Positions 27,455-51,142 of a stretch of DNA of 64,000 nucleotides are shown here, piece after piece; the first letter of the stretch is position 1; every line of letters begins with the position of its first letter. This DNA is from Octopus vulgaris (lineage: Eukaryota): the NCBI GenBank assembly GCA_951406725.2, contig OX597821.1, positions 59,706,001 through 59,770,000 of the forward strand, read 5' to 3'. The position numbers were made by a program.

Positions 27455-30400
27455 GGTGATGACGACGATGATGATGATGACGATGACGACGACCATTTCT
27501 TTCGCACTTTGCCACAAGTATGTAACAAAAAGAAGCCTTGATTTTAATCCCCCATTGTTATTCCATTCACATCATGATACTTTATGTGAAATAGCCAAAT
27601 GAACACAGTATTGACTGGTATTTTATTTTATCGACCCTGAAAGGATACAAAGTAAACTTGACCTTGGCAGTATTTGAACTCGGTATAAGTAGCTCTAATA
27701 ATCCCGTTAATCCAAGGAAGAATATAGTCGATTGAACCAACTCCCGTACATGACAGTACTTATTTTATAACAGCTGCAGAGATGAAAGGCAATGTCAACA
27801 CCAAAGAAAAAAAGAAAAAAGAAAAACAGCAGATAAACTATAGTTTTGGATGATTAGAGAACTAAATAAGTTTAAACTATTAGCTTTGTCCTTGGGTTAT
27901 TGTATGTAGGATAAAACAGCAACAATATAAAATCTAGTCTTTGTGTCTGGCTTAGCACAGTATTTCGTTTATAGCTTTTCTCATTGTAAATAATAAACAG
28001 ATCATATTTTATACATCTTTTGTACTCTTTTTAATCCTGTTAACATAATGAAAACTGGATTATTTTAACCATTTAAATTAATATATTAAATTTCGTAACC
28101 GACTTTATTAACTTTCGGATTTGCTAAATAAATAAATCGTGTTAATGAGTGAGAAGTTACAGGTGAATTGATTAACTTAGAGCTACTACGATCAATAATA
28201 ACAGTTGTTAGCATCATCAGTTGACTACGTGTATCAATGTGAATTTAGGTAAACAGTTAAGACTTTTAGTTTAAAGCGTTAGTTTGTTCAAGTCAGTACT
28301 CTAGGTCAGGTCAGCGGACTATTGTCATATATTGAAGAGGATAACTATATTACGAGAGAGAAACTGCGTTACAATAGATCAATGAACTCATTAATTATTT
28401 CGTTTATTTATAATGTATATCATCGTCATGGTAATAAGGTAGTGTTCCAGAGGAAATAATTAACATCTAGACAACAAAATTAGAAATTACAGGTGGAAAA
28501 ATCTGACAGAGTCATAAATGAAGGAAGAATAATCGTTGATTCCTTTACGATATATGTATATATAAGACAAGACAAAAAAAAAAAAAGGAGCTCATGTAAA
28601 TGCAACACAGGAACAAGTTATACATCTAATCAATGGAGAAGAAAAAGCGTCCGTATGTTGGCTTTACCCTGTTATTTATAACAGTTGGTATTGTCATATT
28701 AATGATGTCTTTAGCTACAGATTACTGGGTGTGTGTCCATCCAAAACTCTTAATAGGAGAAAACAACGCAACAGATACACGGCGATACAGAGGTTCTATA
28801 CATTATGGACTATTCAGAGGTTGTATAATGCTGAACTACGGACTAGGGGATCGTTTGTCGAAAATAGTAGGTGAGAAATCTAAGGGTTTTCTACTCATTA
28901 TTATCGTTGTTATTTGTTTCCTTTTCAGATTTTACCAATTTCTTTTTAAAATATCTATGCAATCCAAATACTTTCAACTTGTTGAGTTTGAATTGTAAAA
29001 TGTTTAAGAGAACAACACAAAGTTTTTAAACTATATTAGTTCTCCTGATTACTTCACAGAAAACCTTTATTTTTGATAAATGTTAAGTGACGAGATTCCT
29101 TTCAATCTCCAATCATGAGCGCAGTTAATTGACAGTTGAACTCCTATCGCAGTCTTAGATTAATGAGAGCTTATCTCTTGCTGTGTAATGCTCACTACAA
29201 TTATATGTTTAAAACATCTCTTTTATCACAATTTGTTTAAATTAATTTGGGAGTGTTTAATATAATTCTCTCTAGAAGATAATAACATCTCGAAGTGTAT
29301 TCTCTGACGTTCTCAAAGTTTCCCCATCTATAATTATATGATCCTCGTATCTTTTCAACTGTTACCATTGTTAGTAGACACTGTGTGACCAAAAGTATAT
29401 GACAAGAAAAGAAAAACAAGGTTACGAATAAGTATAAAAAATAAAACAAATGAAATTATCTCTCTTCCCCTGCAGGGGTTAATGAAAGATAAATAATAAT
29501 CCAGCCTACCTACTCTAGACACCTATTAATTGTACATTCTGTATCTGGTTACTTCGGAGATTCTTTTCATTAATACACTCATCTAATTTGAACTAAAATA
29601 CCACATTCCAAATTGATGGATGAAAACTTTCCCAAATACACTTTAGGTATCGCGTATTTTCTCCGCACGTGCGGGGAACGAAATTTGCTTAAGAGATGCA
29701 AACCCAGGTCCAAAATGTTTTACGAAGTCGATTTTTTTTTTTTTTCATTCTTAATATCAAAACAAACACAGATATATATAATAGTAATAATTATTATTAT
29801 AGTTGGACATCGATCAAATCAGATAAATCCAATAATGAAAAGTTAGTGTTTCAAATCAATCCAAAAATATTTCTCCCCTCATTGGTTTTGGGGATGAAGA
29901 TTTTCAGAAGGATGTTCAATTCAAAGTATTTTCATTAGGGTTAGGGACAGGGCACTGGTAAACTACAAACAGGGAACAGGTTCTATTTGGACTTCACTGG
30001 TGTTTGTACAGCATATTTCGTTTTCCCATTCTTATAGAATTAAGATTTGTGTTAACATTAAATATTGCCTTAAAGACTTACATATTCTATAATGTTGGTT
30101 GTGTGACATATTACAGGGAAACATATATACACTGCACAGTCGCATTTCTCTGTCCAGAGACTTTGTACTGCAAGTTCCATATTGCAACACTAAATTCTTT
30201 AAAAAACTCCATATAAGAACTGGTGGCAGTTCCAATTATTATTGCTTTATTTCACTCTTGTTGTTAATCTTAAATCAATAGAAATTCAATGAAATAATGT
30301 TGTATTTTTGGAGACATATTATAAGACACAAGTCTACATTTTCTTATCACTAAAAACCCTTAATGTTTCATGTTTCTGTTAGAAAGAATTATCTAATGAA

Positions 30401-48505: not shown

Positions 48506-51142
48506 TACATATCTATAGGTAACGCTGGCGCCAGATGGGGCAAAATCGCGAGATATTCGTCGAACTCATACAAGCATTTAAAAGAAAACCAGACAACGAA
48601 TGATAAATACTTGTGTGCGCGGGTGCGCAGACGTGTGTGTTTGCGCGCGCGTATGTGAATGTGAATGTGTGTGTGTGTGAGAGAGAGAGAGAGACTGTGT
48701 GCGCGTGTTTTTGTGGAGATCTGTGAGTGTACGTGTTATCTGTTTTGCTCGATGGCACTTAGCTGTCCCCGCTACCACTTCTGTTCAGTATAAATTGCAT
48801 TGTGAAACTAGTTGACAATATAGGTCTGTTGAATGTAGTCCGGTCGATGTTAAGCAGGTGAGGCGGATGTGCTGAGCTGCGAATTACCTGATATTGTTCA
48901 ACTTGTGACGACATGTTATTGTGTCTGTGTGTGCGCAAGTGATAGTAAAACAAGTATTATTTAACATGTAGGCGAGGTCAGTCGTCTTCGTGACAGAATC
49001 TTATAAATTTATATCAACTGCAGCAACAATAATGATAGTTGTTACGAACTGTGTTCGAATCAGTAATCAGATATATCTATCAGCCACCTGCAGGCATTAG
49101 GATCAGGAACTTATTTGATAATAAACAAACTGTTAAAAGAAACAGCCAAAGGAATAATACAACTTCTAACCAACAGCAGAGCAGACGAATCATACATAAC
49201 TGGATATCCAAGATGGAAAAGACAAAACGTTGCTATGTTCGAGTAACTCTGTTCTTTGTACTCGTTGCATTTGCGTGTCTTTTTGCCTCTCTAACAACGG
49301 ATCACTGGGTGCAGGTTAATCCAGAAATTCATGTAGGCAACGTGACTGCTAATAAAACAACTGCATACATATATTTTGGCCTCTTCTCGGGCAGTCGTAA
49401 TCTTGATGTTGGGAATGGCGAGCGTATTAGAAGTCTCAAAGGTAAGAAAACTTATTATTTTGCAATGGTGATCTCCGAGAAGTTCCTTTGATTAACATCC
49501 TTTTATTCCTCTAGTTTTCTTGTTTCATCTCTTCTCATCCATTCTCCCCACTCCTTTAGGAAATTCTGAACAAACCGAAATGAATTTCATAGAGTAAAAA
49601 TTAATGTTGCAGTTTTAGTTTTAAGTGTTACAAAGAGATTACTTTACTATAAACTTCTTTTATTGCTTGTGTCAGGGGAGAGTCGTTTTCTTTTTGTGCC
49701 TTATAATTTAACACACACATCGGTAAAAGTTCCACTTATTTCTTATTTTTATTGGGATGTCAGATAAATACATTCGTTTTTGTTTTGTTTCATTTTTCTA
49801 CTTGACACTAAATCATCATGTTTGAAAAGAGGTAAAATTTATAGAAATTTCAGAAACGATGAACAAAAGTTGTAGAGAAAGAAGTGAGCTACAAAAAAGT
49901 AAACCTATAAAATACTATGATAAAAAAATAATGTGTTAATTCAAATAACATTGGTAAGAATTAAAATAAAACAGGAGGCGGGGGCCGAAAACTTTAAAGT
50001 GACAACCAAATACAAATCAATGAATGGGCGAAGGTACGCCGAAAACAGGTGGTCTGCATATTCTTTACCTCCGCCAATGAATATTGGAAAATTTATTATT
50101 GTTGTCGATACTGGGTGGGTTACCAAGCCTGCAATCAAATATCAAGTTCCGATAAATACACTTAATGAATTGTGTCTCTCGCATATGTTTTCACCTGTAA
50201 CAACAGGCTATCACATTTGTGTTAACAAACAATTATATTAAGCTTGAAACTTGTAAAATGAGTAGGAGAAAAATGCGTTTCTATATTATGTTTGGGATTT
50301 GTTGTGAGTCATCCCGGGTGTGTAAGGGAAGTTGAAATGAATCGGTTTTTTTCTATTTTTTATTTGAATCAAACATATTTTTCTAGTTCCTATGTGTTTT
50401 CAAACAGTATTTGAAAATTATATTTGTTCCATGAATACACACATGAAAATGGGGACACACACACAAAACATGCAGTTATACAGACTAAATCCTTTGATAC
50501 GGGTACACGATGTCATTCACTCACACAACCTACCCTCATGACACAGATAAAGAGGCTAGGCTGAAAAAAGATGGTTAATGACGTTTTCTCCTGATACCTA
50601 TTTCTTTATTACCCACAAGAGGCTAAACACAGAGGGGACAAACAAGGACAGACATAAGTATTAAGTCGATTACATCGACCCCGAAAGGATGAAAGGCAAA
50701 GTCGACCTCGGTGGAATTTGAACTCACACGTAACGACAGACGAAATACGGCTACGCATTTCGCCCGGCGTGCTAACGTTTCTGCCAGCTCGCCGCCTTGT
50801 TTTCTCCTTATACCTATTTTTTACTACCCACAAGGGGCTAAACACAGAGAGGACAAACAAGGACAGACAAACGGATTAAGTCGATTACATCGACCCCAGT
50901 GCGTGACTGGTACTTAATTTATCGACCCCGAAAGGATGCAAGGCAAAGTCGACCTCGGCGGAATTTGAACTCAGAACATAAAGACAGACGAAATCCCGCT
51001 AAGCATTTCGCCCGGCCTGCTAACGATTCGGCCAGCTCGCCGCCTTGTTTTCTCCTTATACCGACATCCGTATACCTGTACCGAAGGATCACCTACACAA
51101 ACAGACGCATGCGCGTACACGCACATACATATACATGTTACG

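What the first reader, a model, noticed from the sequence alone, without database searches (positions are those of the whole stretch)
28633..49441. Two intact paralogous clarin first exons 20.6 kb apart with no visible downstream exons between them: candidate variable-first-exon clarin locus
Seen: two ATG-initiated exons on the same strand encode TM1 and the first extracellular loop of a clarin. They are about 40% identical (32/79 by hand), free of stops and frameshifts, each has its own repeat-free upstream region, and each ends in a phase-1 GT donor at the equivalent position. In the intervening 20 kb I found only repeats and no TM2-TM4 exon (no NPY/KPIET..GP.GLY.WN-type motif). Known: vertebrate clarins (CLRN1-3) are tetraspans of mechanosensory hair cells, and CLRN1 exon 1 also ends in phase 1. 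Inference: the two exons could be alternative promoters spliced onto shared downstream exons, as in vertebrate clustered protocadherins or UGT1A. That would diversify the extracellular loop of a sensory membrane protein in a cephalopod.
Basis: partly seen in the sequence, partly recalled or inferred. Interest (0 to 1): 0.8.

Follow-up and report, generated by a model that had tools for sequence, protein, structure and literature searches.

The report
Two clarin-like first exons, partners unseen
Two intact, related copies of the first coding exon of a clarin-like membrane protein lie 20.6 kb apart with no later exons detectable near them, so they may be alternative starts of one gene, but the shared exons that would prove this are not in the window.

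Summary
Exon 1A (28633-28870) and exon 1B (49213-49441) lie on the + strand. Each starts at ATG, has an open frame and ends one base into a codon at AG|GTRAGA. They are 33/78 identical (E 6e-20). Only these two copies are in the window.

"Clarin" is the best family label but falls below the curated threshold. 1A scores 25.2 bits against Pfam Clarin-2, whose cut-off is 27; 1B has no Pfam hit. Both have a "Clarin-1" cluster as nearest Atlas neighbour.

No TM2-TM4 exon was detected anywhere on the + strand. I scanned 584 of 620 ORFs with Pfam, searched ORF against ORF for a second related exon pair, and scanned for acceptor plus TM segment.

Codon-position identity of 54/70/41 %, dN/dS of about 0.43 and a neutral-decay simulation (about 0.1 % survival) argue that both copies are under selection.

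The shared-downstream-exon model is therefore the most economical reading, at about 0.45. Its defining part, a common acceptor and constant exons, would lie beyond base 64000 and was not seen. If true, it would be a new member of a known kind.

The parts
28633..28870 (+). Exon 1A: ATG, N-terminal MEKKKR, TM1 (about residues 9-28), first part of extracellular loop 1 with an NAT sequon, YGLFRGC, and Cys34 and Cys64. It has 79 codons plus 1 base.
   Evidence: Pfam Clarin-2 E 1.8e-5, 25.2 bits (cut-off 27), profile positions 7-79 of 202; Claudin_2 E 8.9e-4. Nearest Atlas cluster 'Clarin-1', score 0.94, 204/256 features. PDB: CACNG5, CACNG1 and CACNG7, E 1.2e-3 to 7.8e-3.
28871..28876 (+). Donor of exon 1A, G|GTGAGA, phase 1.
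   Evidence: The clarin profile match of the stop-to-stop ORF 28630-28995 ends at ORF residue 79, just before the donor, and does not run into the hydrophobic read-through. One of 4 AGGTRAGA sites on the + strand.
49213..49441 (+). Exon 1B: ATG, MEKTKR, TM1, loop with NVT and NKT sequons, FGLFSGS. Both cysteines of 1A are replaced (Gln, Ser). It has 76 codons plus 1 base.
   Evidence: 42 % identical to 1A. No Pfam clarin hit at E<=10. Nearest Atlas cluster 'Clarin-1', score 0.95, 214/256 features.
49442..49447 (+). Donor of exon 1B, AG|GTAAGA, phase 1, at the position aligned with the donor of 1A.
28871..49212 (+). 20,342-base interval between the two exons, with no detectable clarin/claudin-like exon. 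It holds interspersed repeats, microsatellites, a mariner remnant and a C2H2 zinc-finger ORF. In the favoured model it is the 5' part of intron 1 of the 1A transcript plus the promoter of 1B.
   Evidence: Pfam scans of alignments A1 and A2, with all matched families listed and none from the clarin/claudin group. ORF-against-ORF searches. Acceptor plus TM scan. 42 % has a second copy in the window. Tandem repeats.
49442..64000 (+). 14,559 bases after exon 1B, with no detectable downstream exon. This sets the minimum length of intron 1 of the 1B transcript if the gene is real.
   Evidence: Pfam scans of A2 and A3 (in A3, 25 of 45 families were shown, complete to about E 0.11). Candidate ORFs scanned singly..
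28561..28568 (+). TATATAAG 65 bases before the ATG of 1A: a possible TATA box, but it sits in a TA-rich stretch and may be chance.
   Evidence: Read only. No matching element before 1B, and no conserved upstream block.

Best explanation
An old tandem duplication copied only the first coding exon of a clarin-like, claudin-superfamily four-pass membrane protein gene. That exon encodes the cytoplasmic N-terminus, TM1 and most of extracellular loop 1. Both copies kept their start codon, reading frame and phase-1 donor under purifying selection. The most economical arrangement is two alternative first exons, each transcribed from its own start. Each would be spliced to one common phase-1 acceptor and a shared set of exons encoding TM2-TM4, lying 3' of base 64000. 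This would yield two isoforms that differ in TM1 and loop 1: one has a cysteine pair in the loop, and the other has none but carries two N-glycosylation sequons. Shown: the two exons, their relatedness, their equivalent donors, the signature of selection, and the failure to detect any downstream exon in the window. Inferred: separate promoters, the shared acceptor and constant exons, transcription itself, and any sensory role.
For: Exon anatomy and equal phase. 42 % identity, E 6e-20. Similarity begins at the ATG and ends a few bases past the donor, with nothing conserved in 1.5 kb of either flank. This is what selection on coding sequence alone would leave after a long time. Selection: identity by codon position is 54/70/41 %, dN 0.57, dS 1.34 by NG86. 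If one copy had drifted neutrally for half of that dS (K 0.6-0.67), ATG, open frame and GT all survive in about 0.1 % of 20,000 simulations. Position-2 identity of at least 70 % is reached in 0.5-1.8 %. Absence of partners: 584 of 620 + strand stop-to-stop ORFs of 30 aa or more were scanned against Pfam. The only clarin/claudin matches are from exon 1A, which also serves as the positive control in its stop-to-stop ORF (E 3.2e-5). At the bit density of exon 1A, the remaining 123 profile positions split over 2-3 exons should give roughly 14-21 bits each, which is E 0.04 or better (inference). No low-copy related ORF pair other than 1A/1B exists: every other match between the 1A-1B interval and the stretch after 1B lies in interspersed repeats. 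So the two copies do not both have full exon sets here. Human CLRN1 isoform a has three coding exons with the first boundary at c.253|c.254, which is phase 1 (passages of PMC5431179). Two more exons are therefore expected.
Against: The common acceptor and constant exons were not seen, and there is no transcript evidence of any kind. Pfam sensitivity is limited: exon 1B itself gets no clarin hit, so diverged or finely split downstream exons could be missed. ORFs under 30 aa were not scanned, and 36 low-complexity ORFs were dropped. In O. vulgaris the median intron is 2,467 bp and the median gene 20,288 bp (Table 3 of PMC10700109). If this is an octopus, which was not tested, a complete small gene could fit in the 20.3 kb interval, and first introns over 14.5 kb and over 35 kb are far above that median. 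No promoter motif is shared by the two upstream regions. No mollusc clarin sequence could be used as a query because the protein databases were closed.
Confidence: 0.45

Rival explanations
1. Ordinary tandem paralogues. Gene A has its own TM2-TM4 exons inside 28871-49212, and they escaped detection because they are diverged or split into small exons. The remaining exons of gene B lie beyond 64000.
For: Exon 1B shows that a genuine member can miss the Pfam model entirely. The octopus median intron of 2.5 kb and median gene of 20 kb would let a 3-4 exon gene fit. ORFs under 30 aa and the 36 dropped ORFs were not scanned.
Against: Every family matched at E<=1 in the interval is listed, and none is clarin, claudin, PMP22 or LHFPL. 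Exon 1A of the same gene is found at E 1.8e-5. The phase-1 acceptor plus TM scan gave only 2 weak candidates in the interval (36182, 36995), and neither has a Pfam hit. By eye, none of the ORFs of 80 aa or more in the interval looks like a two-TM terminal exon.
Confidence: 0.2
2. One functional gene plus a relic. One copy is the true first exon. The other is a duplicated exon that is no longer used, or not spliced productively, and has only recently lost function.
For: 1B lacks a Pfam hit and both loop cysteines. 4.4 % of random 76-codon frames of this window are open. No expression data exist.
Against: After a divergence with dS about 1.3, a neutral copy would keep ATG, open frame and GT in about 0.1 % of simulations, or 1.3 % even at K 0.3. 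Position-2 identity of 70 % against position-3 identity of 41 % indicates constraint in both lineages. The hydrophobic TM1, the sequons and the GLFxG motif are retained in both. The more family-like copy (1A) is the distal one, which is not what a decaying upstream relic predicts.
Confidence: 0.12
3. Two separate genes that are nested or interleaved. Gene B, with its own downstream exons, sits inside a first intron of gene A longer than 35 kb, and nothing is shared.
For: This is compatible with everything seen in the window. Same-strand nested genes do exist (established knowledge, no call).
Against: A tandem duplication does not naturally produce an interleaved order of related exons (inference). 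It needs two undetected exon sets instead of one.
Confidence: 0.1
4. The exons belong to another branch of the claudin-like superfamily (a calcium-channel gamma/TARP-like or Claudin_2-type protein) rather than to clarins. The locus architecture question stays the same.
For: The Pfam Clarin-2 score is below the cut-off, and Claudin_2 also matches. The nearest solved sequences are CACNG5, CACNG1 and CACNG7. Atlas ranks 2-3 are Claudin_2 and CACNG8 clusters at 0.92-0.93.
Against: Clarin-2 is the best Pfam family (E 1.8e-5 against 8.9e-4). The 'Clarin-1' cluster is the top Atlas neighbour for both exons. The phase-1 boundary after about 80 codons matches CLRN1.
Confidence: 0.2

Closest known systems
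Clarins (CLRN1-3; Pfam PF25807 Clarin-2-like)
   Same: N-terminal basic stretch, TM1 and a loop with an N-glycosylation sequon and a GLFxG motif. The first coding exon ends in phase 1 after about 80 codons (CLRN1: c.253|c.254, three coding exons; passages of PMC5431179). Clarin-2 is the best Pfam family for 1A, and a 'Clarin-1' cluster is the top Atlas neighbour for both exons.
   Different: The Pfam score is under the curated cut-off (25.2 vs 27 bits), and 1B has no hit. Only about one third of the protein is visible. TM2-TM4 were not found. That CLRN1 carries its sequon at N48 and a YGLFHG-type motif is recalled, not from a call.
Variable-first-exon clusters (UGT1, GCNT2, clustered protocadherins)
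   Same: Tandem, same-strand, related coding first exons, each with its own ATG and a donor of the same phase, and no constant-type exons between them. [quoted passage not shown]
   Different: Only two copies are seen, and there is none in the 28.6 kb upstream. Constant exons and a shared acceptor were not observed. No conserved promoter element like that of protocadherin variable exons was found (the protocadherin element is recalled). The variable exon here is small (76-79 codons) and encodes one TM helix plus a loop.
Calcium-channel gamma subunits / TARPs and Claudin_2 proteins
   Same: Nearest solved sequences (CACNG5, CACNG1 and CACNG7, E 1.2e-3 to 7.8e-3 over query residues 5-67). The Claudin_2 profile matches 1A residues 18-65.
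   Different: They score lower than Clarin-2 in Pfam and rank lower in the Atlas.

Membership tests
Clarin (PF25807) | Match to the family profile at or above the curated cut-off | tested here: inconclusive
   1A scores 25.2 bits, E 1.8e-5, against a cut-off of 27, covering profile positions 7-79 of 202. 1B has no hit at E<=10. Only one exon of the protein is available, so a score below the cut-off is expected.
Clarin (PF25807) | Four transmembrane helices (tetraspan) | tested here: inconclusive
   Only TM1 is present. No TM2-TM4 exon was detected on the + strand of the window.
Clarin (PF25807) | N-glycosylation sequon in extracellular loop 1 | tested here: met
   NAT at residues 45-47 of 1A; NVT at 43-45 and NKT at 47-49 of 1B. 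That CLRN1 carries its site at N48 is recalled.
Clarin (PF25807) | First coding exon ends in phase 1 after TM1 and most of loop 1 | tested here: met
   79 and 76 codons, each plus 1 base. CLRN1 boundary at c.253|c.254.
Clarin (PF25807) | Placement within clarins in a tree against CACNG, claudin and LHFPL relatives | not testable with these tools
Variable-first-exon cluster (UGT1/PCDH/GCNT2 type) | Tandem array of related first exons on one strand | tested here: met
   Two copies 20,580 bases apart, both on the + strand. No third copy in the window.
Variable-first-exon cluster (UGT1/PCDH/GCNT2 type) | Donors of identical phase at the homologous position | tested here: met
   G|GTGAGA and G|GTAAGA, both phase 1, aligned.
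Variable-first-exon cluster (UGT1/PCDH/GCNT2 type) | No constant-type exons between the variable exons | tested here: met
   None detected in 28871-49212 by Pfam (all matched families listed), by the search for related ORF pairs or by the acceptor plus TM scan. This holds within the stated sensitivity limits.
Variable-first-exon cluster (UGT1/PCDH/GCNT2 type) | One common set of downstream constant exons joined through a shared acceptor | not testable with these tools
   Not present in 49442-64000. Sequence beyond 64000 and transcripts are not available.
Variable-first-exon cluster (UGT1/PCDH/GCNT2 type) | A promoter in front of each variable exon | tested here: inconclusive
   TATATAAG lies 65 bases before the ATG of 1A. 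There is nothing comparable before 1B and no shared upstream element. No expression data.

The most novel reading that the evidence does not exclude
The two exons are the visible 5' end of a variable-first-exon clarin locus. There may be more variable exons and the constant TM2-TM4 exons beyond base 64000. Promoter choice would give sensory or other cells clarin isoforms with different TM1 and extracellular loop 1 (with or without the loop disulfide, and with one or two glycans). That would be an invertebrate, tetraspan counterpart of UGT1/protocadherin-type diversification.
Probability: 0.4. Interest if true: 0.55.

Novelty: new member of a known kind. Interest (0 to 1): 0.35.

Why it matters
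Clarins are small tetraspans needed in vertebrate hair cells and photoreceptors, and their molecular role is still poorly defined. A locus that swaps only TM1 and the first extracellular loop would mark that module as the part under diversifying use. It would also give a natural pair of isoforms to compare. It would be another case of coding diversity through duplicated first exons outside vertebrates. With two copies and no transcript evidence, it remains a modest candidate rather than a discovery.

Tried and rejected
I then scanned stop-free ORFs one by one through alignment ids.

The Pfam scans of + strand ORFs found only transposon and zinc-finger domains and chance low-score families. Two listings were truncated. 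A3 showed 25 of 45 families and is complete to about E 0.11. A4 showed 25 of 63 and is complete to about E 0.062.

The six ab initio candidates (36182, 36995, 55034, 55948, 56367, 58761), plus ORFs 38989-39261 and 29962-30213, gave no clarin or claudin hit at E<=10.

The read-through after the 1A donor encodes a hydrophobic stretch that could be mistaken for TM2. The clarin profile match stops at the donor, and 1B has no such extension, so I rejected it. A possible 58-base mini-intron, 28871-28928, leads to a short non-TM frame that ends in a stop (read), so I rejected that too.

The AlphaFold model of 1A with 1B as its only alignment row had mean pLDDT 56 and pLDDT below 50 for residues 38-79. 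It was not used, and no fold search was run.

Rfam found no match at gathering thresholds in the window.

Literature searches: 'clarin'+'cephalopod' gave 3 papers and 'clarin'+'octopus' gave 20. The titles and abstract starts I saw, and the one paper I opened (where the hit was 'Clarinet'), showed nothing about cephalopod clarin genes. 'clarin'+'alternative first exon' gave 5 papers, none relevant by title.

The minus strand was not scanned for clarin exons because it cannot be spliced to these exons.
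Full report
WHAT IS THERE

Exon 1A starts with ATG at 28633. A TAA lies directly upstream in frame. It runs for 79 codons plus one base to 28870 and is followed by GTGAGA.

Exon 1B starts with ATG at 49213. It is the first ATG of its open frame. 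It runs for 76 codons plus one base to 49441 and is followed by GTAAGA.

Both exons encode:
- a short basic N-terminus (MEKKKR / MEKTKR);
- a hydrophobic helix;
- a polar stretch with N-x-T sequons and a (Y/F)GLFxG motif.

BLASTP gives 33/78 identities, E 6e-20. The two donors fall at the aligned position and in the same phase. tblastn with both peptides finds no third copy in the 64 kb; the next best hit has E 0.67. AGGTRAGA occurs only four times on the + strand, and two of these are the two exon ends.

One correction concerns the upstream regions. The 1 kb before 1A is almost unique within the window (4.9 % has a second copy). The 1 kb before 1B is 30.9 % repeated, and its unique block begins at 48522.

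WHICH FAMILY

Exon 1A matches Pfam Clarin-2-like (PF25807) at E 1.8e-5 and 25.2 bits. This is just under the curated cut-off of 27 and covers profile positions 7-79 of 202. It matches Claudin_2 more weakly. Exon 1B matches neither.

In the ESM Atlas the nearest cluster for both exons is one named 'Clarin-1'. Its representative is 85 aa, and PF25807 is carried by 27 % of its members. The scores are 0.94 (204 features) and 0.95 (214 features). Claudin_2 and CACNG8 clusters follow. The two exons are related to each other, so these are not two independent confirmations.

The nearest solved sequences are calcium-channel gamma subunits, E about 1e-3.

Human CLRN1 isoform a has three coding exons, and its first boundary is c.253|c.254, which is phase 1 (passages of PMC5431179). 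This agrees with the phase seen here.

'Clarin-like member of the claudin superfamily' is therefore the best label, but membership is not proven.

ARE THE DOWNSTREAM EXONS IN THE WINDOW?

I looked in four ways. Each exon or ORF was searched on its own.

(a) Pfam by ORF.
- The + strand has 620 stop-to-stop ORFs of 30 aa or more, and 584 were scanned.
- 313 came from 28871-63999, 269 from 1-28871, and the two exon-bearing ORFs were scanned.
- 36 low-complexity microsatellite ORFs were dropped. The 18 downstream ones are listed; the 18 upstream ones are only counted.
- The only clarin/claudin-family matches are those of exon 1A. It is also recovered inside its stop-to-stop ORF (E 3.2e-5), with the match ending at the donor, which serves as a positive control.
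- Two listings were truncated. They are complete to about E 0.11 for 51441-63999 and to about E 0.062 for 9-13852.

(b) Search for related ORF pairs. Among ORFs in low-copy DNA, the only significant pair besides transposon fragments is 1A/1B. All 102 matches at E<=0.05 between ORFs of the 1A-1B interval and ORFs of the stretch after 1B lie in interspersed repeats or are short chance hits.

(c) Acceptor plus TM scan. A scan for phase-1 acceptors followed by an open frame with a TM-like segment gave six weak candidates, none with any family hit.

(d) By eye. None of the ORFs of 80 aa or more in the interval looks like a two-TM terminal exon.

Limits of these searches:
- Exon 1B shows that a true member can miss the Pfam model.
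- Exons lying in ORFs under 30 aa were not scanned.
- No clarin exon 2/3 query was available.

ARE BOTH COPIES ALIVE?

Nucleotide similarity begins at the ATG and ends a few bases after the donor. Nothing is conserved in 1.5 kb of either flank.

Identity by codon position is 54, 70 and 41 %. dN is 0.57 and dS is 1.34 (NG86), so the ratio is about 0.43.

I simulated one copy drifting neutrally for half of that dS (K 0.6-0.67, substitutions only):
- ATG, open frame and GT were all kept in about 0.1 % of 20,000 trials.
- Position-2 identity of 70 % was reached in 0.5-1.8 % of trials.
- Even at K 0.3, the three signals survived in only 1.3 %.

Against this, 4.4 % of random 76-codon frames of this microsatellite-rich window are open. 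The open frame alone is therefore weak evidence; the combination is not. Both copies have probably been under purifying selection for most of their history.

A notable difference is that 1A has two cysteines (C34, C64) and 1B has neither (Q, S). That is what the joint loss of a disulfide pair would look like (inference).

HOW IT MOST LIKELY WORKS

A duplicated exon under selection must be spliced to something. With no partner exons between the copies, and none in the 14.6 kb after the second, the simplest arrangement is two alternative first exons feeding one acceptor and one set of TM2-TM4 exons beyond base 64000. I put this at about 0.45.

The rivals are:
- ordinary tandem genes whose exons I missed (0.2);
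- one live exon and one recent relic (0.12);
- nested separate genes (0.1).

The confidence figures for the architectural readings leave a remainder for arrangements I did not name. The family question is a separate axis and is not part of that sum: I put non-clarin membership within the claudin superfamily at about 0.2.

Octopus annotation statistics cut both ways, if the organism is an octopus at all, which no call tested. O. vulgaris has a median intron of 2,467 bp, a median gene of 20,288 bp and 8.36 genes per Mb (Table 3 of PMC10700109). O. minor has a mean intron of 5.4 kb (PMC6279123). A small gene could fit in 20 kb, yet two first exons 20 kb apart is dense for such a genome.

COMPARISON AND NOVELTY

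Variable-first-exon clusters are known. UGT1, GCNT2 and the protocadherins are described that way in the abstract starts listed (PMC3325998, PMC1885805).

Here the array has two members, no shared promoter motif and an unseen constant region. My searches found no paper on cephalopod clarin genes or on clarin variable first exons. They cover only the held open-access library.

If confirmed, this would be a new member of a known kind and of moderate interest.

LEFT UNCHECKED

- Any comparison with mollusc or other clarin proteins, and with other genome assemblies.
- Sequence beyond the window.
- Transcripts.
- The identity of the organism.

Noticed in passing
window 31430-31660 (+): A 77-aa open frame with two C2H2 zinc fingers (Pfam zf-C2H2, E 1.2e-8, 35.4 bits, above its cut-off). 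It lies 2.6 kb after exon 1A on the same strand. It has no obvious start, and its origin is unknown: it could be a transposon-borne finger or a fragment of a zinc-finger gene.
   Followed up: partly
window 42680-43584 (+): Mariner-type transposase remnant. Pfam finds HTH_48 (E 3.4e-10) and Transposase_1 (E 7.7e-15). The coding sequence is spread over two overlapping frames (42849-43514 and 43186-43581), so it is frameshifted. Long (TATA/TATG)n arrays flank it at 42186-42557 and 43828-44400.
   Followed up: partly
window 52273-53206 (+): Tc1-type transposase in two overlapping frames. Pfam finds HTH_Tnp_Tc3_2 (E 6.3e-17) and DDE_3 (E 3.6e-11). It is frameshifted and lies 2.8 kb after exon 1B.
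   Followed up: partly
window 46427-46627: A 101-base unit repeated exactly twice in tandem at 100 % identity (TRF score 402). It could be a very recent duplication or an assembly artefact. The junction creates one of the four AGGTRAGA sites on the + strand.
   Followed up: no
window 32909-33204, 36903-37034; also about 576-926, 25384-25701, 44478-44810, 51441-51794, 58760-60254: An interspersed repeat family with an internal period of about 66 bases, present on both strands. It accounts for most ORF-level similarity between the 1A-1B interval and the stretch after 1B. Its type was not determined.
   Followed up: partly
window 20910-21857 (-) and 9400-9894 (-): A 316-aa open frame and a 165-aa open frame are related to each other (E 3.9e-8). 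Neither has a Pfam hit at E<=0.01. From recalled motifs they look like the C-terminal part of a LINE reverse transcriptase.
   Followed up: partly
window 28871-28995 (+): Read-through past the 1A donor stays open for 42 more codons and encodes a hydrophobic stretch (…FLLIIIVVICFLF…) from a T-rich intron start. The clarin profile does not align to it, and 1B has no equivalent.
   Followed up: yes
window 1-64000: No Rfam family reaches its gathering score anywhere in the window on either strand. Apart from the two exons and transposon fragments, no other gene-like feature was seen on the + strand.
   Followed up: partly
window 49667-49753 and 54638-54722 (+): A two-copy 87-89-base similarity at 85 % identity. 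The first copy lies 225 bases after the donor of exon 1B. Its significance is unknown; it is probably a short repeat.
   Followed up: no
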